Source of the DNA: a virus
Lineage: Duplodnaviria; Heunggongvirae; Uroviricota; Caudoviricetes
Strand: one strand, 5' to 3'
Length of the DNA: 12,387 nucleotides
IMG/VR virus record: IMGVR_UViG_3300015182_000009
This document shows, piece by piece, positions 1-12,387 of this stretch (positions are counted from its first letter, which is position 1; each line of letters begins with the position of its first letter). A program made the translations under genes and the position numbers. The notes under the pieces were generated by a model, which saw nothing but the letters and a program-made list of their open reading frames with translations, was not told the origin of the DNA and did not search any database.

Positions 1-55
1 GATACGGCGACCACCGAGATCTACACTCTTTCCCTACACGACGCTCTTCCGATCT
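1..55. other. Illumina TruSeq universal (P5) adapter sequence; sequencing/assembly artefact, not genomic
   Basis: Positions 1-55 read GATACGGCGACCACCGAGATCTACACTCTTTCCCTACACGACGCTCTTCCGATCT, which is the TruSeq universal adapter minus its first three bases (AAT). Genomic sequence starts at 56. Confidence 0.9.
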
Positions 56-84
56 ATGAAAATGCGTCTTAGGAAGGTTAAATA

Positions 85-475
85 ATGCACGAAAAGAACA
101 TCGCCCTGCTTTGTGATGAAGCCGACCGACTTTTGCAACTGAACATTAATCTGCTCCGGCAAATGGTTGAGGAGCCAGATGTGTTATCTGACAGTAAGAA
201 CGAAAACAGACTGCTTTTTGATAAACAGAAAGCACTGAAAAGAATTGAGGAGCTGGAGGGCGAACAAATCAAAACCGCCCGCAGGGAGATGGTGCTGGCT
301 GTTGTCGGCACGATGAAAGCAGGCAAATCAACCACCATCAACGCCATTGTGGGGCAGGAAATTCTGCCTAACCGTAACCGCCCCATGACCTCTGTACCGA
401 CGCTCATCCGCCACGTTCCCGGAAAAACTGAGCCGGTTCTCCATCTGGAACATATTCAGCCTGTCCGCAATTTAT
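85..475 (+). pseudogene. Dynamin-like GTPase (CrfC/YjdA-like), N-terminal ~130 codons, truncated by the IS66 insertion
   Basis: ATG at 85 preceded by AGGAAGG. Translation contains a P-loop GTMKAGKST followed by TINAIVGQEILPNRNRPMTSVPTLIRH, as I recall for E. coli CrfC/YjdA. The track ORF 85..519 continues into the IS terminal repeat from 476, so its last 14 codons are IS-derived. Confidence 0.6.
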
Positions 476-501
476 GTAAGCGTCAACGGAGCACCGTATT
501 G
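476..501. repeat. IS66 terminal inverted repeat (IRR in element orientation)
   Basis: GTAAGCGTCAACGGAGCACCGTATTG matches about 19 of 24 positions with the reverse complement of the other end. Confidence 0.6.
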
Positions 502-505
502 ACGC

Positions 506-2119
506 TTATTTATTGGTGAGTACTACGTTCCATGGCAGGAGTTCATCAACTCGGTTGGAAGGCCATTCCGGCAGTACGCTCAGGATATGGCGCAGATACG
601 CTTCCGGATCGATACCGTTCAGACGGCAGGTGCCGATCAGCCCGTACAACAGTGCTCCACGCTCGCCGCCGTGATCGCTGCCAAAGAACATAAAGTTTTT
701 CTTTCCGAGACAGACTGCACGAAGCGCTCTTTCCGCAGCATTATTATCCGCCTCCGCCAGACCGTCATCACTGTAATAACAGAGGGCATCCCACTGATTC
801 AGTACATAGCTGAACGCTTCGCCCAGTCTGGATTTTTTCGACAGCGTACCATTCTTCTCCACCATCCATTCATGCAGCGACGTCAGTAACACTTTGCTTC
901 GCTGCTGCCTGACGGCAAGACGCTCTGACTCCGGTAATCCCCGTATTTCATCCTCGATGGCGTACAGTTCACTGATTCGCTTCAGTGCTTCTTCTGCCGT
1001 CGCACTTTTGCTGCTGATGTATACATCGTGGATTTTTCGCCGGGCATGGGCCCAGCACGCAACTTCTGTCAGTGCACCACCTTCACGTTCTGCACTGAAC
1101 AACCTGTCGTAACCTGTGAACGCATCCGCCTGCAGGATACCCCGGAAGGGGCGGAGGTGTTGCTCCGGGTGTTTCCCCTGCCGGTTCGGCGAGTACGCGA
1201 ACCAGACCGCTGGAGGAGATGACGAACCCACATTGCGATCATCCCGGACATACGTCCAGATACGCCCTGTTTTCGCCTTTTTCTGACCCGGTGCCAGTAC
1301 CTTTACCGGTGTGTCATCAGTGTGAATCTTGCGGGTGTTCATTACATAACGGTACAGGGCATCATTCACCGGTGTCATTAACTGGCAGCACGCGTCAACC
1401 CAGTTGGAGAGTAAGGCCCGGCTCAGTTCGACACCCTGGCGGGCAAAGATTTCACTCTGACGATACAGTGGCAGATGTTCGCAGTATTTTCCCGTTAACA
1501 CGCGGGCAAGTAATCCGGGGCCCGCGATACCACGCTCTATCGGGCGGGACGGCGCCGGTGCTTCAACAATACAGTCACATTTTGTACAGGCTTTTTTTAC
1601 CCGTTCTGTGCGGATCACTTTCAGGGCACTGCTCACCAGTTCCAGCTGTTCAGCGCTGACTTCCCCCAGATAATCCAGCTTACCGCCACACTCCGGGCAA
1701 CAGCTTTCTTCTGGCTCCAGGCGGTGTATTTCACGGGGAAGGTGTGCCGGTAACGGACGACGATGGCGCGACTGTCGCAACTGGCGGGGAACCTGAGGAT
1801 CGTCTTCCCGCCCACTGTAACGATCGCTGTCCTGTTCACGTTGTTTCAGCAGAGCCTCAGCCAGTTCAACTTCACGACGCAGTTTTTCAGAACGGGTACC
1901 GAACAGCATCCGGCGCAGTTTTTCTATCTGAGCCCGCAGATGTTCTATTTCCCGTTCATCTTCTTCGATCTTTTCTTCGGCACGTGTCAGTGCAGAGCGC
2001 AGGAAGGCTTCCGTCTCTTCAACCAGACTCAGTTGCTGGTCTTTCTGACGGAGGGCTTCAGCCTGCTCAGAGAGCAACCTTTCCAGCTCTGCGATGCGAA
2101 TGAGGTATTTCTGACTCAT
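506..2119 (-). CDS. tnpC: IS66-family transposase TnpC (orf3)
   Basis: 537-aa ORF with a coiled/leucine-rich N-terminus and Cys motifs CPECGGK...CTKCDC, recognised as the large IS66 transposase. It lies 30 nt downstream of orf2. Confidence 0.88.
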   Translation of the reverse strand: MSQKYLIRIAELERLLSEQAEALRQKDQQLSLVEETEAFLRSALTRAEEKIEEDEREIEHLRAQIEKLRRMLFGTRSEKLRREVELAEALLKQREQDSDRYSGREDDPQVPRQLRQSRHRRPLPAHLPREIHRLEPEESCCPECGGKLDYLGEVSAEQLELVSSALKVIRTERVKKACTKCDCIVEAPAPSRPIERGIAGPGLLARVLTGKYCEHLPLYRQSEIFARQGVELSRALLSNWVDACCQLMTPVNDALYRYVMNTRKIHTDDTPVKVLAPGQKKAKTGRIWTYVRDDRNVGSSSPPAVWFAYSPNRQGKHPEQHLRPFRGILQADAFTGYDRLFSAEREGGALTEVACWAHARRKIHDVYISSKSATAEEALKRISELYAIEDEIRGLPESERLAVRQQRSKVLLTSLHEWMVEKNGTLSKKSRLGEAFSYVLNQWDALCYYSDDGLAEADNNAAERALRAVCLGKKNFMFFGSDHGGERGALLYGLIGTCRLNGIDPEAYLRHILSVLPEWPSNRVDELLPWNVVLTNK

Positions 2120-2149
2120 GACCGTTTTTATAATGCGGTCAGGAGTTTT

Positions 2150-2500
2150 TTACAACATTGTCAGTGAGTTACGGCTGGATGTTTTTGGCTGACGCCAGTC
2201 CAGCTTATCGAGGAGCATTGCCAGTTGCGAGCGGGTAATGGATACCTTGCCGTCACGTACCGCAGGCCAGATAAACTGGCCTTCCTCCAGGCGTTTGGTG
2301 AACAGGCACAGACCATCAGCATCAGCCCAAAGAATTTTGACGGTGTCACCCCGTCGGCCACGGAAGATAAACAGGTGACCGGAGAAGGGATTATCATTCA
2401 GCACATGTTGTACCTGTTCTCCCAGTCCGTTGAAGGATTTACGCATATCGGTAACGCCGGCAACGAGCCAGATACGGGTACCTGATGGGAGTGAGATCAT
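2150..2500 (-). CDS. tnpB: IS66-family accessory protein TnpB (orf2)
   Basis: 116-aa ORF (MISLPSGTRIWLVAGVTDMRKSFNGL...) typical of IS66 orf2. Its start overlaps the orf1 stop by 4 nt (2497-2500), consistent with translational coupling. Confidence 0.85.
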   Translation of the reverse strand: MISLPSGTRIWLVAGVTDMRKSFNGLGEQVQHVLNDNPFSGHLFIFRGRRGDTVKILWADADGLCLFTKRLEEGQFIWPAVRDGKVSITRSQLAMLLDKLDWRQPKTSSRNSLTML

Positions 2501-2922
2501 CTTCCCCTCCCGGTCAGTTCACGGATCAACACTGTGAGCAGCTCTGGCGATGGATTTTCCAGCGTCATGTTACCGTGACGGAATTCCACCTTGCAGGAAC
2601 TGGCACTGACTCTGGTCTGAGTGGAAGTGGATAAAGACGGCGCAATGGCCGCCACAGGTTCTTTCTGCTCATCCGGCGTTATTTCTACAGGTAATAATTC
2701 AACGCCAGTGTCAGAAGAGGTCGTTACCGGAAGACGCCGCGAAACACGCCCTTCGTTCTGCCAGAGCCTGAGCCATTTGAAAATAACATTATCATTGACG
2801 CCATTTTCACGTGCAATCTGTGCAACACAAGCTCCAGGTTGTGATGCCAGTTCCACCATACGAAGTTTGAATTCATTCGAATAGTTTTTACGAGGTTCTT
2901 TTCGCCAGTCCTGTAATTCCAT
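2497..2922 (-). CDS. tnpA: IS66-family accessory protein TnpA (orf1), helix-turn-helix
   Basis: 141-aa ORF; the segment ELASQPGACVAQIARENGVNDNVIFKWLR looks like an HTH. It is the first gene inward from the element's left repeat. Confidence 0.8.
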   Translation of the reverse strand: MELQDWRKEPRKNYSNEFKLRMVELASQPGACVAQIARENGVNDNVIFKWLRLWQNEGRVSRRLPVTTSSDTGVELLPVEITPDEQKEPVAAIAPSLSTSTQTRVSASSCKVEFRHGNMTLENPSPELLTVLIRELTGRGR

Positions 2923-2935
2923 ACTTAGATGTCCG

Positions 2936-2965
2936 TCTATATCAGATGGGCGTCTAAGTTACCAA
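2936..2965 (-). promoter_or_regulatory. Possible sigma70-like promoter for the IS66 orf1-3 operon
   Basis: On the minus strand, TTGGTA, an 18-nt spacer, then TATAGA, located between the left repeat and the orf1 start. Sequence resemblance only. Confidence 0.2.
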
Positions 2966-2981
2966 TTCTCGTCTGATGGCT

Positions 2982-3007
2982 ACATACGGCGGTCAGTTTA
3001 CGCTTAC
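2982..3007. repeat. IS66 terminal inverted repeat (IRL in element orientation)
   Basis: ...CGGCGGTCAGTTTACGCTTAC; its reverse complement GTAAGCGTAAACTGACCGCCG pairs with 476-501. Confidence 0.6.
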
Positions 3008-3009
3008 GG

Positions 3010-3204
3010 GTCAGGGCCATTGGAGATGTGAATGGTGGCGGTGGATTTGTTTATTCTCCCGTGTATCACATCAGCATTCAGAATCAAGGGAGCAATGGCG
3101 AGATAGATGCGCGCTCAGCCAGGGGACTGGTGGATCTGATCGACAGCAGGGTTGTGTCAATTATGCAGTCATCGCGTCGGGATGGAGGATTGTACAGTGC
3201 CTGA
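3010..3204 (+). pseudogene. H: Tail tape-measure protein (lambda H-like), C-terminal 64 codons only; 5' part removed at the IS66 junction
   Basis: Frame 1 is open from the IS boundary: VRAIGDVNGGGGFVYSPVYHISIQNQGSNGEIDARSARGLVDLIDSRVVSIMQSSRRDGGLYSA*. The stop at 3202-3204 sits 5 nt after the M start, as at the lambda H/M junction. There is no start codon or upstream sequence. Confidence 0.55.
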
Positions 3205-3538
3205 GCCTGAAGTTTTTAACTGGATCCCCCGTGAGGGGATGGAGACGACACGAAAGCCATCAGTTATTACGGTAAAGTTTGGTGACGGATATGAACAGCG
3301 ACGGGCTGGTGGTCTGAATGCGGATCTGAAAACGTTTAAACCGGTATTTCGTGTCACAGATGAATATTCCCGTGCCGCGCTGGACAGTTTTTTATCCCGT
3401 CATGCCGGGATTCGTGCTTTTTTGTGGCGTCCGCCAAAACACAACAGGACTGTCCGGGTTGTCTGCAGGGAGTGGAGCATTTCGGATAATGCCATGTATA
3501 CCGATTTTAACTGTACCTTTGAAGAGGTCACTCACTGA
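3197..3538 (+). CDS. M: Minor tail protein M (lambda gpM-like)
   Basis: Translation ...FNWIPREGMETTRKPSVITVKFGDGYEQRRAGGLNADLKTF... aligns with lambda gpM (FRWKVKPGMDV...VRFGDGYSQRAPAGLNANLKTY). I chose the GTG at 3197 because GGAGGA sits 7 nt upstream and it gives 113 aa against lambda's 109. In-frame ATGs at 3182 and 3152 (the track start) are alternatives. The stop overlaps the L start (TGATG). Confidence 0.8.
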   Translation: MPEPEVFNWIPREGMETTRKPSVITVKFGDGYEQRRAGGLNADLKTFKPVFRVTDEYSRAALDSFLSRHAGIRAFLWRPPKHNRTVRVVCREWSISDNAMYTDFNCTFEEVTH

Positions 3539-4236
3539 TGCAGGATATACAGCAGGAAACACTCAATGAGTGCACTAAAACGGAGCAATCCGCGCTGGTC
3601 GTGCTCTGGGAAATTGATCTGACAGAGGTCGGCGGAGATCGTTATTTCTTCTGTAATGAGCAGAACGAAAAAGGTGAACCAGTCACCTGGCAGGGGCGGC
3701 AGTATCAGGCTTATCCCATTCAGGGAAGCGGATTTGAGATGAACGGCAAAGGAGCCAGTGCAAGGCCAACGCTTAAAGTCTCTAATCTGTACGGCATGGT
3801 CACCGGGATGGCGGAAGATATGCAGAGTCTGGTCGGCGGAACGGTGGTCCGGCGTAAGGTTTACGCCCGTTTTCTGGATGCGGTGAACTTCGTCAACGGA
3901 AACAGTTACGCCGATCCGGAGCAGGAGGTGATCAGCCGCTGGCGCATTGAGCAGTGCAGCGAACTGAGCGCGGTGAGTGCCTCCTTTGTACTGTCCACGC
4001 CGACGGAAACGGATGGCGCTGTTTTTCCGGGACGTATCATGCTGGCCAACACCTGCACCTGGACCTATCGCGGTGACGAGTGCGGTTATAGCGGTCCGGC
4101 TGTCGCGGATGAATATGACCAGCCAACGTCCGATATCACGAAGGATAAATGCAGCAAATGCCTGAGCGGTTGTAAGTTCCGCAATAACGTCGGCAACTTT
4201 GGCGGCTTCCTTTCCATTAACAAACTTTCGCAGTAA
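3538..4236 (+). CDS. L: Minor tail protein L (lambda gpL-like)
   Basis: 232 aa, the same length as lambda gpL, with a Cys-rich C-terminus (CSKCLSGCKF). It sits immediately after M with an overlapping start. Confidence 0.9.
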   Translation: MQDIQQETLNECTKTEQSALVVLWEIDLTEVGGDRYFFCNEQNEKGEPVTWQGRQYQAYPIQGSGFEMNGKGASARPTLKVSNLYGMVTGMAEDMQSLVGGTVVRRKVYARFLDAVNFVNGNSYADPEQEVISRWRIEQCSELSAVSASFVLSTPTETDGAVFPGRIMLANTCTWTYRGDECGYSGPAVADEYDQPTSDITKDKCSKCLSGCKFRNNVGNFGGFLSINKLSQ

Positions 4237-4241
4237 ATCCC

Positions 4242-4985
4242 ATGACACAGACAGAATCAGCGATTCTGGCGCACGCCCGGCGATGTGCGCCAGCGGAGTC
4301 GTGCGGCTTCGTGGTAAGCACGCCGGAGGGGGAAAGATATTTTCCCTGCGTGAATATCTCCGGTGAGCCGGAGGCGTATTTCCGTATGTCGCCGGAAGAC
4401 TGGCTGCAGGCAGAAATGCAGGGTGAGATTGTGGCGCTGGTCCACAGCCACCCCGGTGGTCTGCCCTGGCTGAGTGAGGCCGACCGGCGGCTGCAGGTGC
4501 AGAGTGATTTGCCGTGGTGGCTGGTCTGCCGGGGGGCGATTCACAAGTTCCGCTGTGTGCCGCATCTTACCGGGCGGCGCTTTGAGCACGGGGTGACGGA
4601 CTGTTACACGCTGCTCCGGGATGCTTACCATCTGGCGGGAATTGAGATGCCTGATTTTCATCGTGAGGATGACTGGTGGCGTAACGGCCAGAATCTCTAT
4701 CTGGATAATCTGGAGGCGACGGGGCTGTATCAGGTGCCGTTGTCAGCGGCACAGCCGGGCGATGTGCTGCTGTGCTGTTTTGGTTCATCGGTGCCGAATC
4801 ACGCCGCAATTTACTGCGGCGACGGCGAGCTGCTGCACCATATTCCTGAACAACTGAGCAAACGAGAGAGGTACACCGACAAATGGCAGCGACGCACACA
4901 CTCCCTCTGGCGTCACCGGGCATGGCACGTATCTGCCTTTACGGGGATTTGCAACGATTTGGCCGCCGCATCGACCTTCGTGTGA
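4242..4985 (+). CDS. K: Tail tip assembly protein K (lambda gpK-like), MPN/JAMM plus NlpC/P60-like domains
   Basis: JAMM-type motif HSHPGGLPWLSEADR and a C-terminal Cys/His region (DCYTLL...HAAIY). The long ORF starts 5 nt after the L stop. The classical 199-aa lambda K corresponds to the internal ATG at 4386 (MSPEDWLQ...). The 3' end overlaps gene I by 103 nt. Confidence 0.85.
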   Translation: MTQTESAILAHARRCAPAESCGFVVSTPEGERYFPCVNISGEPEAYFRMSPEDWLQAEMQGEIVALVHSHPGGLPWLSEADRRLQVQSDLPWWLVCRGAIHKFRCVPHLTGRRFEHGVTDCYTLLRDAYHLAGIEMPDFHREDDWWRNGQNLYLDNLEATGLYQVPLSAAQPGDVLLCCFGSSVPNHAAIYCGDGELLHHIPEQLSKRERYTDKWQRRTHSLWRHRAWHVSAFTGICNDLAAASTFV

Positions 4986-5530
4986 AAACGGGGGCCGAAG
5001 CCATCCGGGCGCTGGCCATGCAGATCCCGGCGTTTCGTCAGAAACTGAGCGATGGCTGGTATCAGGTGCGCATTGCCGGGCGTGATGCAGGCGAAAACGA
5101 ATTATCAGCCCGTCTTAATGAGCCGCTGAAAAATGGTGCCGTGATCCACATCGTTCCGCGTCTTGCGGGAGCAAAAAGTGGCGGTGTGTTTCAGGCGGTG
5201 CTGGGTGCGGCGCTGATTGCAGTGGCGTGGTGGAACCCTGTGGGCTGGCTGGGAGCTGCGGCTGTATCGGGCATGTATGCTGCGGGGGCCAGTATGATCC
5301 TTGGCGGTGTGGCGCAGATGCTGGCACCGAAAGCCAGAACTCCCCGTACACAGACAACGGATAACGGTAAGCAGAACACCTATTTCTCCTCACTGGATAA
5401 CATGGTTGCCCAGGGCAATGTTCTGCCCGTTCTGTACGGTGAAATGCGCGTGGGGTCGCGGGTGGCTTCTCAGGAGATCAGCACGGCAGACGAAGGGGAC
5501 GGTGGTCAGGTTGTGGTGATTGGTCGCTGA
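4883..5530 (+). CDS. I: Tail tip assembly protein I (lambda gpI-like)
   Basis: Begins MAATHTLPLASPGMARICLYGDLQRFGRRIDLRVKTGAEAIRALA and ends ...QEISTADEGDGGQVVVIGR, as I recall for lambda gpI. 215 aa, with the start overlapping K in a different frame. Confidence 0.9.
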   Translation: MAATHTLPLASPGMARICLYGDLQRFGRRIDLRVKTGAEAIRALAMQIPAFRQKLSDGWYQVRIAGRDAGENELSARLNEPLKNGAVIHIVPRLAGAKSGGVFQAVLGAALIAVAWWNPVGWLGAAAVSGMYAAGASMILGGVAQMLAPKARTPRTQTTDNGKQNTYFSSLDNMVAQGNVLPVLYGEMRVGSRVASQEISTADEGDGGQVVVIGR

Positions 5531-5548
5531 TGCAAAACGTTTTATGTG

Positions 5549-5575
5549 AAACCGCCTCAGGGCGGTTTTGTCGTT
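5549..5575 (+). terminator. Stem-loop plus U-run between I and J (possible attenuator or RNA processing site)
   Basis: AAACCGCC-TCAG-GGCGGTTT then TGTCGTTT. The J ribosome-binding site GAGGA follows at 5586-5590. Confidence 0.35.
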
Positions 5576-5590
5576 TCTGGAGCGTGAGGA

Positions 5591-8500
5591 ATGGGTAAAG
5601 GCAGCAGTAAGGGGCATACCCCGCGCGAAGCGAAGGACAACCTGAAATCATCCCAGATGCTGAGCGTGATAGACGCCATCAGTGAAGGGCCGGTTGAAGG
5701 TCCGGTGGATGGATTAAAAAGCGTGCTGCTGAACAGTACGCCGGTGCTGGACACTGAGGGGAATACCAACATCTCCGGTGTCACGGTGGTGTTCCGTGCC
5801 GGTGAGCAGGAGCAGACACCGCCGGAGGGGTTTGAATCCTCCGGCTCCGAGACGGTGCTGGGTACGGAAGTGAAATATGACACGCCGATCACCCGCACCA
5901 TCACGTCTGCAAACATCGACCGTCTGCGCTTTACCTTCGGTGTGCAGGCACTGGTGGAAACCACCTCAAAGGGGGACCGGAATCCGTCGGAAGTTCGCCT
6001 GCTGGTTCAGATACAGCGTAATGGTGGCTGGGTGACGGAAAAAGACATCACCATTAAGGGCAAAACCACCTCGCAGTATCTGGCCTCGGTGGTGGTGGAT
6101 AACCTGCCGCCGCGCCCGTTTAATATCCGGATGCGCAGGATGACGCCGGACAGCACCACAGACCAGCTGCAGAACAAAACGCTCTGGTCGTCATACACCG
6201 AAATCATCGATGTGAAACAGTGCTACCCGAACACGGCACTGGTCGGCGTACAGGTGGATTCGGAGCAGTTCGGCAGCCAGCAGGTGAGCCGTAATTATCA
6301 TCTGCGCGGGCGCATTCTGCAGGTGCCGTCGAACTATAACCCGCAGACGCGGCAATACAGCGGTATCTGGGACGGAACGTTTAAACCGGCATACAGCAAC
6401 AACATGGCCTGGTGTCTGTGGGATATGCTGACCCATCCGCGCTACGGCATGGGGAAACGTCTTGGTGCGGCGGATGTGGATAAATGGGCGCTGTATGTCA
6501 TCGGCCAGTACTGCGACCAGTCGGTGCCGGACGGCTTTGGCGGCACGGAGCCGCGCATCACCTGTAATGCGTACCTGACCACACAGCGCAAGGCGTGGGA
6601 TGTGCTCAGTGATTTCTGCTCGGCGATGCGCTGTATGCCGGTATGGAACGGGCAGACGCTGACGTTCGTGCAGGACCGACCATCAGATAAGGTGTGGACC
6701 TATAACCGCAGTAATGTGGTGATGCCGGATGATGGCGCGCCGTTCCGCTACAGCTTCAGCGCCCTGAAAGACCGCCATAATGCCGTTGAGGTGAACTGGA
6801 TTGACCCGGACAACGGCTGGGAGACGGCGACAGAGCTTGTTGAAGATACGCAGGCCATTGCCCGTTACGGTCGTAACGTCACGAAGATGGATGCCTTTGG
6901 CTGTACCAGCCGGGGGCAGGCGCACCGCGCCGGGCTGTGGCTGATTAAAACGGAACTGCTGGAAACGCAGACCGTGGACTTCAGCGTGGGTGCGGAAGGG
7001 CTTCGCCATGTACCGGGGGATGTCATTGAAATCTGCGATGATGACTATGCGGGTATCAGCACCGGCGGGCGCGTGCTGGCGGTGAACAGCCAGACCCGGA
7101 CGCTGACGCTCGACCGTGAAATCACGCTGCCATCCTCCGGTACCACGCTGATAAGCCTGGTTGACGGTCAGGGTAATCCGGTCAGCGTGGAGGTCCAGTC
7201 CGTCACCGACGGCGTGAAGGTGAAAGTGAGCCGGGTTCCTGATGGTGTTGCAGAATACAGCGTGTGGGGGCTGAAGTTGCCGACGCTGCGCCAGCGCCTG
7301 TTCCGCTGTGTGAGTATCCGTGAGAACGATGACGGCACGTATGCCATCACCGCCGTGCAGCATGTACCGGAAAAAGAAGCCATCGTGGATAACGGGGCGC
7401 ACTTTGACGGCGACCAGAGCGGCACGGTGAATGGTGTCACGCCGCCAGCGGTGCAGCACCTGACTGCCGAAGTCACCGCAGACAGCGGGGAATATCAGGT
7501 GCTGGCGCGCTGGGACACGCCGAAGGTGGTGAAGGGCGTGAGCTTCCTGCTCCGTCTGACCGTAACAGCGGATGACGGCAGTGAGTGGCTGGTCAGCACG
7601 GCCCGGACGACGGAAACCACTTACCGCTTCACACAACTGGCGCTGGGGAACTACAGGCTGACAGTCCGGGCAGTAAATGCGTGGGGGCAGCAGGGCGATC
7701 CGGCGTCGGTATCGTTCCGGATTGCCGCACCGGCAGCGCCGTCGCGGATTGAGCTGACGCCGGGCTATTTTCAGATAACCGCCACGCCGCATCTTGCGGT
7801 TTATGATCCGACGGTACAGTTTGAGTTCTGGTTCTCGGAAAAGCGGATTACCGATATCAGGCAGGTTGAAACCACAGCACGCTATCTTGGCACGGCGCTG
7901 TACTGGATAGCCGCCAGTATCAATATCAAACCGGGCCATGATTATTACTTTTATATCCGCAGTGTGAACACCGTTGGCAAATCGGCATTCGTGGAGGCTG
8001 TTGGTCAGCCGAGTGATGATGCATCCGGTTATCTGGATTTTTTCAAAGGCGAGATAGGGAAAACCCATCTGGCTCAGGAGCTGTGGACGCAGATTGATAA
8101 CGGTCAGCTTGCGCCTGACCTGGCTGAAATCAGGACGTCCATTACGGATGTCAGCAATGAAATCACGCAGACCGTCAATAAGAAACTGGAAGACCAGAGT
8201 GCGGCAATTCAGCAGATACAGAAGGTTCAGGTTGATACAAATAATAACCTGAACAGCATGTGGGCTGTGAAGCTGCAGCAGATGCAGGACGGACGCCTTT
8301 ATATCGCGGGTATTGGTGCCGGTATTGAGAACACCCCTGACGGCATGCAGAGTCAGGTGCTGCTGGCGGCAGACAGGATTGCGATGATTAATCCTGCGAA
8401 TGGCAACACAAAGCCGATGTTTGTTGGGCAGGGCGATCAGATATTCATGAACGAAGTGTTCCTGAAACGCCTGACGGCTCCCACCATTACCAGCGGCGGT

Positions 8501-9070
8501 AATCCTCCGGTATTTTCCCTGACACCGGACGGGCGGCTGACGGCGAAAAATGCCGATATCAGCGGTAACGTGAATGCGAACGCCGGGACGCTCAACAACG
8601 TCACGATTAACGAGAACTGTCGGGTTCTGGGAAAACTGTCCGCCAACCAGATTGAAGGCGATCTCGTTAAAACAGTGGGCAAAGCTTTCCCCCGGGACTC
8701 CCGTGCACCGGAACGGTGGCCATCAGGGACCATCACCGTCAGGGTTTATGACGATCAGCCGTTTGACCGGCAGATTGTTATTCCGGCGGTGGCATTCAGC
8801 GGCGCTAAACATGAGCGGGAGAATAACGATATTTATTCGTCATGCCGCCTGATAGTACGGAAAAACGGTGCTGAAATTTATAACCGTACCGCGCTGGATA
8901 ATACGCTGATTTACAGTGGTGTTATTGATATGCCTGCCGGTCACGGTCACATGACACTGGAGTTTTCGGTGTCAGCATGGCTGGTAAATAACTGGTATCC
9001 CACAGCCAGTATCAGCGATTTGCTGGTTGTGGTGATGAAGAAAGCCACTGCAGGCATCACGATTAGCTGA
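5591..9070 (+). CDS. J: Central tail fibre / host specificity protein J (lambda gpJ-like)
   Basis: 1159-aa ORF starting [20 protein letters not shown]..., as recalled for lambda gpJ (1132 aa). The long antisense ORF 6683..8068 is a by-product of this gene's composition. Confidence 0.92.
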
Positions 9071-9088
9071 ATTTTATAACCCAGATAC

Positions 9089-9113
9089 GGGCGCCAGAAA
9101 TGGCGCCTTTTTT
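9089..9113 (+). terminator. Rho-independent terminator downstream of J
   Basis: GGCGCC-AGAAAT-GGCGCC hairpin (9090-9107) followed by TTTTTT (9108-9113). Confidence 0.7.
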
Positions 9114-9137
9114 ATTGCAGAAAAGCGAGAGGTAATT

Positions 9138-9737
9138 ATGCGTAAAGTTTATGCAGCTATTTTGTCCGCAGCCATCTGTCTGGCCGTATCAGGTACGCCT
9201 GCATGGGCGTCTGAACACCAGTCCACACTGAGCGCAGGGTATCTTCATGCCCGTACGAACGTCCCCGGCAGCGATAATCTGAACGGGATTAACGTGAAAT
9301 ACCGTTATGAATTTACGGACACGCTGGGGCTGGTGACGTCATTCAGTTATGCCAATGCCAAAGATGAGCAAAAAACGCATTACAGCGATACCCGCTGGCA
9401 TGAAGATTCCGTGCGTAACCGCTGGTTCAGCGTGATGGCGGGGCCGTCTGTGCGCGTGAATGAATGGTTCAGCGCGTATGCGATGGCGGGTATGGCTTAC
9501 AGCCGTGTGTCGACTTTCTCCGGGGATTATCTCCGCGTAACTGACAACAAGGGGAAAACGCACGACGTGCTGACCGGAAGTGATGACGGTCGCCACAGCA
9601 ACACGTCTCTGGCGTGGGGGGCTGGCGTGCAGTTTAACCCGACCGAATCCGTGGCCGTTGATGTCGCTTATGAAGGTTCCGGCAGTGGCGACTGGCGCAC
9701 TGACGGTTTCATCGTGGGTGTCGGTTATAAATTCTGA
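9138..9737 (+). CDS. lom: Outer-membrane protein Lom (Ail/Lom/OmpX family beta-barrel), a lysogenic-conversion moron
   Basis: 199 aa with a signal peptide (MRKVYAAILSAAICLAVSGTPAWA) and a C-terminus ...YEGSGSGDWRTDGFIVGVGYKF matching the lambda Lom ending. The ribosome-binding site GAGAGG lies upstream. Its position between J and stf is as in lambda. Confidence 0.9.
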   Translation: MRKVYAAILSAAICLAVSGTPAWASEHQSTLSAGYLHARTNVPGSDNLNGINVKYRYEFTDTLGLVTSFSYANAKDEQKTHYSDTRWHEDSVRNRWFSVMAGPSVRVNEWFSAYAMAGMAYSRVSTFSGDYLRVTDNKGKTHDVLTGSDDGRHSNTSLAWGAGVQFNPTESVAVDVAYEGSGSGDWRTDGFIVGVGYKF

Positions 9738-9763
9738 TTAGCCAGGTAACACAGTGTTATGAC

Positions 9764-9790
9764 AGCCCGCCGGTTCAGGCGGGCTTTTTT
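9764..9790 (+). terminator. Rho-independent terminator downstream of lom
   Basis: AGCCCGCC-GGTTCA-GGCGGGCT hairpin followed by TTTTTT. Confidence 0.75.
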
Positions 9791-9801
9791 GTGGGGTGAA
9801 T

Positions 9802-12387
9802 ATGGCAGTAAAGATTTCAGGTGTACTGAAAGACGGCACAGGAAAACCGGTACAGAACTGCACAATCCAGCTGAAAGCAAAACGTAACAGTACCACGGTG
9901 GTGGTGAACACGCTGGCCTCAGAAAATCCGGATGAAGCCGGGCGTTACAGCATGGACGTTGAGTACGGTCAGTACAGCGTTATTCTGTTGGTGGAAGGAT
10001 TCCCGCCGTCACATGCCGGGACCATCACCGTGTATGAAGATTCCCGACCCGGTACGCTGAATGATTTTCTCGGTGCCATGACGGAGGATGATGCCCGTCC
10101 TGAGGCACTGCGCCGTTTTGAACTGATGGTGGAAGAGGTGGCGCGTAACGCGTCCGCGGTGGCACAGAACACGGCAGCCGCGAAGAAGTCAGCCAGCGAT
10201 GCCAGCACATCAGCCCGTGAGGCGGCAACCCGTGCGACTGATGCTGCAGGCTCAGCACGTGCAGCCAGCACGTCAGCCGGACAGGCCGCGTCGTCGGCTC
10301 AGTCAGCGTCTTCCAGCGCAGGAACGGCATCAACAAAGGCCACTGAAGCATCAAAAAGTGCTGCCGCCGCAGAGTCTTCAAAAAGCGCGGCAGCCACCAG
10401 TGCCGGTGCAGCGAAAACGTCGGAAATGAATGCCGCAGCATCACAAAAATCTGCGGCCACATCTGCATCCACCGCGACCACGAAAGCGTCAGAAGCTGCC
10501 ACCTCAGCCCGGGATGCGTCGGCTTCAAAAGTGGCGGCAAAATCATCAGAAACGAGCGCTGCCTCGAGCGCCGGCAGTGCAGCTTCCTCGGCAACGGCAG
10601 CAGGAAATTCCGCGAAGGCCGCAAAAACGTCTGAGACGAATGCGGATAACAGCGCACAGGCGGCAGCAGACTCACAAACTGCATCGGCAAACTCCGCGAC
10701 AGCAGCCAAAAAATCAGAAACCAACGCGAAAAATAGTGAGGCAGCAGCAAAGGTCAGCGAAACCAACGCTAAAGCGTCAGAGAACAAGGCGAAAGAATAT
10801 CTCGACAAGGTCGGGGGACTCGTCAGCCCGATGACGCAATACGATTGGCCCGTTGTTACTGGTAATGAGTCTTTTTACATAAAGATCGCGAAACTTTCCG
10901 ATCCCGGAAGCGGCAATTGCCATGTAACGCTAATGGTTACTAATGCCGGTAACTACGGCTCCCCTTACGGAAACATTGACTTTATCGAGATCTCGGCGCG
11001 CGGTCTGCCTTCTTTGCTTAGTGCGGATAATGTTTCTCGTCATCTGAGTATACGCCGCTTAGGGTCAACCGGGCTGACCGATAACAACCAGATGCGTTAC
11101 GGCCTGGTTAAAGGTGACGGCTTTATTGAGGTTTGGGCCTTCCAGCGCGCATTTATCAACGGCGCAAAGGTTGCGGTGCTGGCGCAGACGGCACGCCCGG
11201 AATTATACATTCCAGACGGATTTGTTAAGCAAACCGCCGCGCCTTCTGGATATGTTGAAAGCCCCGTTGTAAGGATTTACGACCAGTTAAACAAGCCGAC
11301 TAAAGCAGATTTGGGTCTTTCTAATGCTATGCTTACAGGCGCTTTCGGTCTTGGCGGTAGCGGGATATCAACAAACGGCAAGATGAGCGATGTAGAGATC
11401 TTAAAAGCTCTGCGTGACAAAGGTGGTCATTTCTGGCGCGGTGATAAGCCGACCGGAAGCACGGCGACCATTTATAGCCACGGTTCTGGTATATTCTCGC
11501 GGTGCGGCGATACGTGGTCAGCGATCAATATCGACTACTCAACCGCGAAGATTAAGATCTATGCCGGCAACGATGCCCGGCTTAACAACGGGACTTTTAG
11601 CATCAATGAGCTATACGGCTCGGCAAACAAGCCGTCGAAATCGGATGTTGGACTTGGCAACGTAACTAACGATGCGCAGGTGAAAAAATCCGGCGATGTT
11701 ATGTCTGGTGATCTTGATATATTGAAAGAAACGCCATCTATCAGGCTAAAATCAGCAAAAGGAACCGCTCATCTGTGGTTCATGAACAACGACGGAAGCG
11801 AGCGCGGCGTTGTTTGGTCGCCTGAAAACAACGAATCACTTGGCGAAATCCACATCAGGGCGAAAAACACAAAAGGTGAATCAAGTGGTGATTTTATTGT
11901 TCGCCACGACGGGAGGGTTGAGGCCCGCAATCTAAAAATAACTTACAAAATCAGCGCAGCCACCGCAGAATTTGCAAACACAAGCACCAGTTCCGATAAC
12001 ACTACGGTAAGCATCAAAGGATCTCAGCATACGCCTTTGGTTTTAACGAGCAACAACACAATTAAAAACTTGTCCATTGGGTTTAAGGTTGATGATGTTG
12101 ATCAAAAATACCTGGGTATAGCTGGTGACGGTGATTTGTATTTTGGTAGTTATTCTGACCACACAAAAAACAGCAAAGTAATCACACAAGCAAAACTCGA
12201 TAGCGGGGTGACGGTAGGCGGTAAAACAACCTTTTCTGACTTTGCCACATTTAACGCAGGTATGGCGGGATCTATCGAGCCGGAAACCATTGACAACAAG
12301 ACTATTGATTTAAACGACTTGATCATTGCTAATACAGTGGCTGGATCTGTTAAATACTATCAATGCAAAACTGTTGCAGGTGGTGCA
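9802..12387 (+). CDS. stf: Side tail fibre protein (lambda Stf-like N-terminus, divergent distal region); 3' end lies beyond the window
   Basis: ATG at 9802 opens a frame-1 reading frame with no stop to the window end (862 codons). It is missing from the ORF track, presumably because that track lists only ORFs with a stop inside the window. The N-terminus MAVKISGVLKDGTGKPVQNCTIQLKA...SMDVEYGQYSVIL...FPPSHAGTITVYEDS matches lambda Stf, followed by an Ala/Ser/Thr/Lys-rich shaft and then an unrelated AT-richer distal region. Confidence 0.85.
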   Translation, partial: MAVKISGVLKDGTGKPVQNCTIQLKAKRNSTTVVVNTLASENPDEAGRYSMDVEYGQYSVILLVEGFPPSHAGTITVYEDSRPGTLNDFLGAMTEDDARPEALRRFELMVEEVARNASAVAQNTAAAKKSASDASTSAREAATRATDAAGSARAASTSAGQAASSAQSASSSAGTASTKATEASKSAAAAESSKSAAATSAGAAKTSEMNAAASQKSAATSASTATTKASEAATSARDASASKVAAKSSETSAASSAGSAASSATAAGNSAKAAKTSETNADNSAQAAADSQTASANSATAAKKSETNAKNSEAAAKVSETNAKASENKAKEYLDKVGGLVSPMTQYDWPVVTGNESFYIKIAKLSDPGSGNCHVTLMVTNAGNYGSPYGNIDFIEISARGLPSLLSADNVSRHLSIRRLGSTGLTDNNQMRYGLVKGDGFIEVWAFQRAFINGAKVAVLAQTARPELYIPDGFVKQTAAPSGYVESPVVRIYDQLNKPTKADLGLSNAMLTGAFGLGGSGISTNGKMSDVEILKALRDKGGHFWRGDKPTGSTATIYSHGSGIFSRCGDTWSAINIDYSTAKIKIYAGNDARLNNGTFSINELYGSANKPSKSDVGLGNVTNDAQVKKSGDVMSGDLDILKETPSIRLKSAKGTAHLWFMNNDGSERGVVWSPENNESLGEIHIRAKNTKGESSGDFIVRHDGRVEARNLKITYKISAATAEFANTSTSSDNTTVSIKGSQHTPLVLTSNNTIKNLSIGFKVDDVDQKYLGIAGDGDLYFGSYSDHTKNSKVITQAKLDSGVTVGGKTTFSDFATFNAGMAGSIEPETIDNKTIDLNDLIIANTVAGSVKYYQCKTVAGGA

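What the first reader, a model, noticed from the sequence alone, without database searches (positions are those of the whole stretch)
1..55. Contig begins with an Illumina TruSeq/P5 adapter
The first 55 nt are the universal adapter (minus its leading AAT), ending exactly in ...GCTCTTCCGATCT before genomic sequence starts at 56. This is untrimmed adapter at a contig end. Anything inferred from the left edge, including what lies upstream of the GTPase gene, is unreliable, and it raises the possibility that other joins in this contig are assembly artefacts.
Basis: seen in the sequence. Interest (0 to 1): 0.5.

Follow-up and report, generated by a model that had tools for sequence, protein, structure and literature searches.

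The report
Untrimmed Illumina adapter at contig start
The first 55 bases of this E. coli contig are a synthetic Illumina TruSeq sequencing adapter left in by an untrimmed assembly, so this is an ordinary, well-known artefact and not a biological feature.

Summary
Confirmed. Window 1-55 matches bases 4-58 of the 58-nt Illumina TruSeq universal (P5/Read-1) adapter exactly, with no i5 index. No match is expected by chance. Homology to E. coli starts at base 56. Native genomes and an independent metagenome contig read ...GGTTGTC before that point, not adapter. None of 5,426 complete E. coli genomes holds the 55-mer. This is read-through of a short library insert that was never trimmed, sitting in the place and orientation already described for adapter-contaminated assemblies.

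The rest of the contig is E. coli in three blocks. Bases 56-475 are 29 bp of native upstream sequence plus the first 391 nt of a dynamin-family GTPase gene. Bases 476-3007 are a complete ISEc23 (IS66 family). Bases 3008-12387 are a lambdoid prophage tail module, 100% identical to many chromosomes.

The IS has no 8-bp target duplication. Its two flanks lie about 0.95 Mb apart, on the same strand, in the closest complete genomes. The dynamin|IS junction recurs in another assembly; the IS|prophage junction was found nowhere. The linkage across the IS is therefore probably a mis-join through a repeat, though a real IS-mediated rearrangement is not excluded. Biological interest is very low.

The parts
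1..55 (+). Illumina TruSeq universal adapter, bases 4-58 of 58 (leading AAT missing). Synthetic, not genomic.
   Evidence: Exact 55/55 identity. Not found in full in any of 5,426 complete E. coli genomes.
1..26 (+). P5 flow-cell binding part of the adapter (AAT)GATACGGCGACCACCGAGATCTACAC. It is followed directly by the Read-1 primer site with no i5 index, which marks the single-index TruSeq design.
   Evidence: 12-mer mapping of P5 to window 1-26. Absence of an index read directly from the sequence.
23..55 (+). Read-1 sequencing-primer site ACACTCTTTCCCTACACGACGCTCTTCCGATCT. The final T is the ligation overhang.
   Evidence: 12-mer mapping from window 23. The native base at this position is C, not T.
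56..84 (+). The 29 native E. coli bases upstream of the dynamin-family gene. This is the end of the library fragment that carried the adapter.
   Evidence: 100% identity to L001 9584 onward and to L004 405 onward.
85..475 (+). First 391 nt (130 codons plus 1 nt) of a 2,397-nt dynamin-family GTPase gene, cut off by the IS. The open frame runs on to 519 and gives a 144-aa fusion product.
   Evidence: Pfam Dynamin_N is recorded for the identical product.
476..3007 (-). Complete ISEc23 (IS66 family), 2,532 bp, with ends GTAAGCG...CGCTTAC. Genes on the - strand: tnpC 506-2119, tnpB 2150-2500, tnpA 2497-2922. Its flanks CAATTTAT and GGGTCAGG differ, so there is no 8-bp target duplication.
   Evidence: 99.96% identity to an annotated ISEc23. 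Ends and flanks. ORFs.
3008..12387 (+). Lambdoid prophage tail module. Last 197 nt of the tape-measure gene (to 3204), M-like 3182-3538, L 3538-4236, K-like C40 peptidase 4242-4985, I-like 4982-5530, J 5591-9070, lom 9138-9737, and the tail-fibre N-terminal gene from 9802, which runs off the end.
   Evidence: 100% identity in a single piece to many E. coli chromosomes. Annotation of L002 mapped with an offset of -1993.

Best explanation
Bases 1-55 are not genomic DNA. They are the TruSeq universal adapter that was ligated to an A-tailed E. coli fragment whose end lay at window base 56.

Inferred mechanism, from how TruSeq libraries work: the fragment was shorter than the read length, so read 2 ran through the insert into the reverse complement of the universal adapter. 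The reads were assembled without adapter trimming. That adapter-bearing read (or its duplicates) supplied the k-mers that extended the contig leftward from base 56 into adapter instead of into the true upstream sequence. The extension stops 3 nt short of the adapter's end, most simply because the read ended there (insert length plus 55 equals read length).

Everything from base 56 on is E. coli: a dynamin-family gene start, an ISEc23, and a lambdoid prophage tail module. The only other questionable linkage is the one across the 2.5-kb ISEc23. It most likely pairs the left flank of one IS copy with the right flank of another.
For: Shown:
- Exact 55/55 identity to the adapter, with 0 matches in 200 shuffles.
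- E. coli homology begins exactly at 56.
- Native genomes (L001) and an independent contig (L004, ENA ERZ27315463 k141_5504) continue upstream of that base with ...CCTCCGTGGTTGTC, not adapter.
- No complete E. coli genome carries the 55-mer.
- L004 is 100% identical to window 56-569 and itself ends in the other TruSeq adapter, AGATCGGAAGAGCACACGTCTGAACT. Assemblies made from untrimmed reads that carry this same locus therefore exist.
- PMC11536531 reports that reverse-complement adapters (CTCTTCCGATCT with the adjoining read-specific part) cluster at the beginnings of contigs in public microbial assemblies. That is the configuration seen here.

For the IS linkage:
- The flanks CAATTTAT and GGGTCAGG differ. 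A clean ISEc23 insertion in the same gene in strain GPEC673 has the 8-bp duplication GGAAATCT.
- In MRSN346595 the two flanks lie at 2.217 Mb and 1.269 Mb on the same strand.
Against: No reads are available, so soft-clipping or a coverage collapse at 55/56 could not be seen directly. The read-through mechanism and the reason for the missing AAT are inferred. I could not find the window's own source record, so it is assumed rather than shown that base 1 is a true contig end. For the IS linkage, a contig that runs straight through a 2.5-kb IS is what one expects when the IS is single-copy in the sample. That would argue the join is real.
Confidence: 0.98

Rival explanations
1. The 55 bases are natural genomic or mobile-element sequence that happens to resemble the adapter.
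For: None found. One complete genome (AREA_R485) holds a 28-nt piece of the same adapter inside fliI.
Against: An exact 55-nt match has a chance expectation of about 4^-55 per site, and 0 of 200 shuffles matched. The 55-mer is absent from 5,426 complete E. coli genomes. Native sequence upstream of base 56 is known and different. The AREA_R485 piece sits in a frameshifted pseudogene and looks like contamination too.
Confidence: 0.001
2. The adapter is internal to a longer record, with the window merely starting inside it. It would then mark a chimeric join of two unrelated fragments and not a contig end.
For: We are not told that base 1 is a contig end. The leading AAT is missing, as a window cut would produce. 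Internal adapter remnants do occur, for example in AREA_R485 fliI.
Against: The window length of 12,387 is not a round number, which suggests a whole contig. Adapters in assemblies are overwhelmingly at contig extremities, in this orientation (PMC11536531). The sister contig L004 also carries its adapter at its very end.
Confidence: 0.03
3. The linkage dynamin-5' | ISEc23 | tape-measure-3' is real: a single hybrid IS copy produced by recombination between two ISEc23 copies in the source strain. Given the geometry of the closest genomes, this would be the junction of a tandem duplication of about 0.95 Mb, or it would require a differently arranged chromosome.
For: The contig passes straight through a 2.5-kb IS, which short-read assemblers normally do only when the repeat is unbranched in the graph. 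Both joins fall exactly at the IS termini. Both flanks are 100% identical to one lineage (MRSN346595-like), so no mixing of strains is needed. The left junction is reproduced in another assembly.
Against: There is no target duplication. The right junction was found in no collection searched. In MRSN346595 both loci are on the + strand with the prophage 0.95 Mb upstream, so the join is neither a viable deletion nor an inversion. It could only be a duplication-type or excised-circle-type junction, and a duplication would itself leave several IS copies in the genome. The assembly pipeline was demonstrably careless, since the adapter was not trimmed.
Confidence: 0.3

Closest known systems
Illumina adapter contamination of public microbial assemblies (Moeller lab, BMC Genomics 2024, PMC11536531; the kind of sequence that NCBI VecScreen/UniVec-type adapter screens are built to flag, from my own knowledge)
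   Same: Reverse-complement TruSeq adapter (…ACACTCTTTCCCTACACGACG + CTCTTCCGATCT) sits at the very beginning of a contig, and the contig stops there.
   Different: Nothing of substance. Here almost the whole adapter is retained (55 of 58 nt, including the P5 flow-cell part), not only the 12-34 nt nearest the insert.
ENA metagenome contig ERZ27315463 k141_5504 (L004)
   Same: It covers the same locus, is 100% identical to window 56-569 and has the same dynamin|ISEc23 junction. It also ends in an untrimmed TruSeq adapter.
   Different: Its adapter is the index-side one (AGATCGGAAGAGCACACGTCTGAACT), at the other end, 94 nt into the IS. It keeps 404 nt of true upstream sequence, reaching an ISEc12 end, where the window has adapter.
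ISEc23 insertion in the same dynamin-family gene in E. coli GPEC673 and GCU-H1
   Same: Same IS, same orientation, same gene.
   Different: In GPEC673 the insertion is 146 bp further downstream and is a clean insertion, with the 8-bp duplication GGAAATCT and the rest of the gene on the other side. GCU-H1 was not read; its two matching pieces lie about 123 bp further apart than in the window. In the window the far side of the IS is prophage DNA and there is no duplication.

Membership tests
Illumina TruSeq universal (P5-side) adapter contamination | Near-exact identity to the 58-nt universal adapter over most of its length | tested here: met
   55/55 identical to adapter bases 4-58, with 0 matches in 200 shuffles.
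Illumina TruSeq universal (P5-side) adapter contamination | Adapter ends in ...GCTCTTCCGATCT directly against insert DNA, and organism homology starts at the next base | tested here: met
   E. coli alignments start at base 56. The native preceding base is C, not T.
Illumina TruSeq universal (P5-side) adapter contamination | Located at a contig extremity, in the orientation produced by read-through (reverse-complement form at the contig beginning) | tested here: met
   It occupies bases 1-55 on the + strand, which is the pattern described in PMC11536531. That base 1 is the true contig end is assumed.
Illumina TruSeq universal (P5-side) adapter contamination | Sequence absent from finished genomes of the organism, and native sequence at that site is different | tested here: met
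   No complete E. coli genome has the 55-mer. L001 and L004 show ...GGTTGTC upstream of base 56.
Illumina TruSeq universal (P5-side) adapter contamination | Read-level signature: soft-clipping or a coverage collapse at the adapter/insert boundary | not testable with these tools
   No reads are available and the source record was not found.
Simple ISEc23 (IS66-family) insertion | Terminal inverted repeats starting GTAAGCG, and three genes tnpA-tnpB-tnpC | tested here: met
   The ends at 476 and 3007 match at 22 of the first 30 positions. ORFs are at 2497-2922, 2150-2500 and 506-2119. The element is 99.96% identical to an annotated ISEc23.
Simple ISEc23 (IS66-family) insertion | 8-bp direct target-site duplication, with both flanks from one locus | tested here: not met
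   The left flank CAATTTAT is from the dynamin gene and the right flank GGGTCAGG is from the tape-measure gene. The two loci are 0.95 Mb apart in MRSN346595. The positive control GPEC673 has the duplication GGAAATCT.

The most novel reading that the evidence does not exclude
The join across ISEc23 is genuine. It would record an IS-mediated large rearrangement in an MRSN346595-like E. coli lineage: a tandem-duplication-type junction linking the dynamin/RdcB/patatin island to a lambdoid prophage about 0.95 Mb away. That would follow two new ISEc23 insertions not seen in 5,426 complete genomes.
Probability: 0.25. Interest if true: 0.15.

Novelty: not a real feature. Interest (0 to 1): 0.03.

Why it matters
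The finding matters only for data hygiene.

- Bases 1-55 should be masked.
- No promoter, operator or upstream-gene inference should be made to the left of base 56.
- The physical linkage between 56-475 and 3008-12387 should not be trusted without read support.
- Any apparent association between the dynamin-family GTPase and the prophage tail genes in this contig is likely spurious.
- The adapter flags that the source assembly was built from untrimmed reads, so its other contig ends deserve the same screen.

Tried and rejected
Searches for the window's own source record or further copies of its junctions:
- The exact adapter|genome pattern in viral contigs found nothing.
- The IS|prophage junction was absent from viral, JGI metagenome and GTDB genome contigs, from complete E. 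coli genomes and from phage records.
- The dynamin|IS junction was absent from JGI metagenome and GTDB genome contigs. In complete E. coli genomes no record holds it contiguously; the only two full-coverage hits were two-piece matches in which the IS sits further downstream.

Look-ups by exact protein:
- The 99-aa ORF spanning the right junction (2976-3275) is not on record.
- The 58-aa truncated tape-measure ORF (3028-3204) returned only a Logan contig that begins at the equivalent of window 3027, so it says nothing about the junction.
- The 144-aa dynamin/IS fusion did return one informative contig, L004.

Ideas rejected:
- Further adapter remnants inside the window: none.
- Hidden joins inside the three genomic blocks: each aligns as a single piece.
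- A chimera between different strains: both flanks are 100% identical to the same MRSN346595-like lineage.

Full report
**Observation**

The window opens with GATACGGCGACCACCGAGATCTACACTCTTTCCCTACACGACGCTCTTCCGATCT. A string comparison shows this is identical, 55 of 55, to bases 4-58 of the 58-nt Illumina TruSeq universal adapter. The adapter sequence is from my own knowledge. Its diagnostic parts, CTCTTCCGATCT and the reverse complement of CGTCGTGTAGGGAAAGAGTGT, are quoted in PMC11536531.

- A scan allowing 3 mismatches gives one match, at 1-55 on the + strand, and none in 200 dinucleotide-preserving shuffles.
- Window 1-26 is the P5 flow-cell part and 23-55 is the Read-1 primer site. There is no i5 index between them, which marks the single-index TruSeq design.
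- No other adapter 12-mers (TruSeq index side, P7, Nextera) occur elsewhere in the window. CTCTTCCGATCT occurs only at 44-55.

**Where the real DNA starts**

Megablast of window 1-3000 against 5,426 complete E. coli genomes gives alignments that begin at base 56. A local BLAST against strain ECCTRSRTH03 (L001) gives 56-475 at 100%.

In L001 the bases before that point read ...GACCTCCTCCGTGGTTGTC|ATGAAAATG. The window has the adapter there, and the adapter's final T replaces a native C.

The 144-aa product of the ORF at 85-519 is on record on exactly one other contig, ENA ERZ27315463 k141_5504 (L004, 944 bp). That contig is 100% identical to window 56-569 and carries 404 nt of genuine upstream sequence in place of the adapter.

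The 55-mer is absent from all complete E. coli genomes. The only hit is a 28-nt adapter piece in one strain, described under "In passing".

**How it got there (inferred)**

In a TruSeq library the universal adapter's T overhang is ligated to the A-tailed insert. If the insert is shorter than the read, read 2 runs into the reverse complement of this adapter. Its reverse complement then reads adapter followed by insert, as seen here.

Without trimming, such reads extend a contig from the fragment end (base 56) into adapter. The contig ends there because the molecule or the read ends. The 3 missing bases are most simply a read-length limit.

L004 shows the same fault in a public assembly of this very locus. 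It ends in AGATCGGAAGAGCACACGTCTGAACT, the index-side adapter. PMC11536531 documents that adapter contamination is common in microbial genome databases, that reverse-complement adapters cluster at contig beginnings, and that it breaks contigs.

**What the rest of the contig is**

| Window | Content | Evidence |
|---|---|---|
| 56-84 | Native upstream sequence | |
| 85-475 | First 391 nt of a 2,397-nt dynamin-family gene. In complete genomes it sits in a GTPase / dynamin / RdcB-family / patatin-like phospholipase cluster | |
| 476-3007 | Complete 2,532-bp ISEc23 (IS66 family), ends GTAAGCG...CGCTTAC, with tnpA, tnpB and tnpC on the - strand, 99.96% identical to annotated copies | |
| 3008-12387 | Lambdoid prophage tail module: last 197 nt of the tape-measure gene, then M, L, K, I, J, lom and the start of the tail-fibre gene. 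100% identical in one piece to many chromosomes | |

There are therefore no hidden joins inside the blocks. Besides 55/56, the only joins are the two IS ends.

**Are the IS joins trustworthy?**

- The flanks are CAATTTAT on the left and GGGTCAGG on the right, so the 8-bp target duplication expected for this IS is missing.
- As a control, strain GPEC673 has ISEc23 in the same gene, 146 bp further downstream, with a clean GGAAATCT duplication and the rest of the gene on the far side.
- Neither window junction exists contiguously in any of the 5,426 complete genomes.
- The left junction is reproduced in L004, so that insertion is very probably real.
- The right junction was found nowhere: not in phages, viral contigs, JGI metagenomes or GTDB genomes.

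The complete genomes that best match L004 over its full length, including its ISEc12 end, include the MRSN346595 group. That group also carries the prophage block at 100%. In MRSN346595 the prophage block lies at 1,268,668-1,278,047 and the dynamin start at 2,216,273-2,217,099, both on the + strand.

Joining dynamin-5' to tape-measure-3' across an IS would therefore be a tandem-duplication-type or excised-circle-type junction. It could not be a viable deletion or an inversion.

In a de Bruijn assembly both junction sequences must exist in reads. The doubtful element is thus only whether one IS copy carries both flanks. I judge a mis-join through the repeated IS the more likely reading (about 0.65-0.7) and a real rearrangement less likely (about 0.3). 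Only reads can settle it.

**Comparison with known things, and verdict**

This is textbook adapter contamination, identical in kind to what PMC11536531 surveys and to what adapter screens remove. It is not a biological feature. Interest is very low. The practical action is to mask 1-55 and to treat 56-475 and 3008-12387 as not proven to be linked.

**In passing**

- A RefSeq "complete" genome (AREA_R485) has 28 nt of the same adapter inside a frameshifted fliI.
- ISEc23 has hit the same dynamin-family gene at two or more different sites in different lineages.

Noticed in passing
L006 301-328 (NZ_CP123349.1 702311-702338, E. coli AREA_R485 chromosome): A RefSeq 'complete genome' carries 28 nt of the same TruSeq adapter (CTTTCCCTACACGACGCTCTTCCGATCT) inside fliI, which is annotated as a frameshifted pseudogene. 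The frameshift is probably an assembly or polishing artefact and not a real loss of flagellar export.
   Followed up: partly
L004 914-944 (ENA ERZ27315463 k141_5504): This public metagenome contig covers the same dynamin|ISEc23 junction and ends in the index-side TruSeq adapter AGATCGGAAGAGCACACGTCTGAACT, 94 nt into the IS. That assembly was also built from untrimmed reads and may come from a related sample.
   Followed up: partly
window 468-483; L003 6240-6256 and 8774-8790: ISEc23 has inserted into the same dynamin-family GTPase gene at two or more different sites in different lineages. One is after CAATTTAT (this window and L004). Another is 146 bp downstream with the duplication GGAAATCT (GPEC673). 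GCU-H1 also has the IS in this gene, about 123 bp downstream by match spacing, but was not read. In ECCTRSRTH03-type strains another ISEc23 copy lies just upstream of the neighbouring GTPase gene. This may be a preferred target region.
   Followed up: partly
window 85-475; L007 757-8799: The truncated gene belongs to a conserved four-gene cluster: GTPase-family protein, dynamin-family protein, RdcB-family protein and patatin-like phospholipase. The cluster lies on an island rich in IS elements (IS100, ISEc12, ISEc23). Its function was not examined here.
   Followed up: no
window 9802-12387: The right end of the window stops inside the prophage tail-fibre N-terminal gene, which runs about 740 nt further in strain 4/2-1, and has no adapter. 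This is probably a repeat boundary shared with other prophage tail-fibre genes.
   Followed up: no
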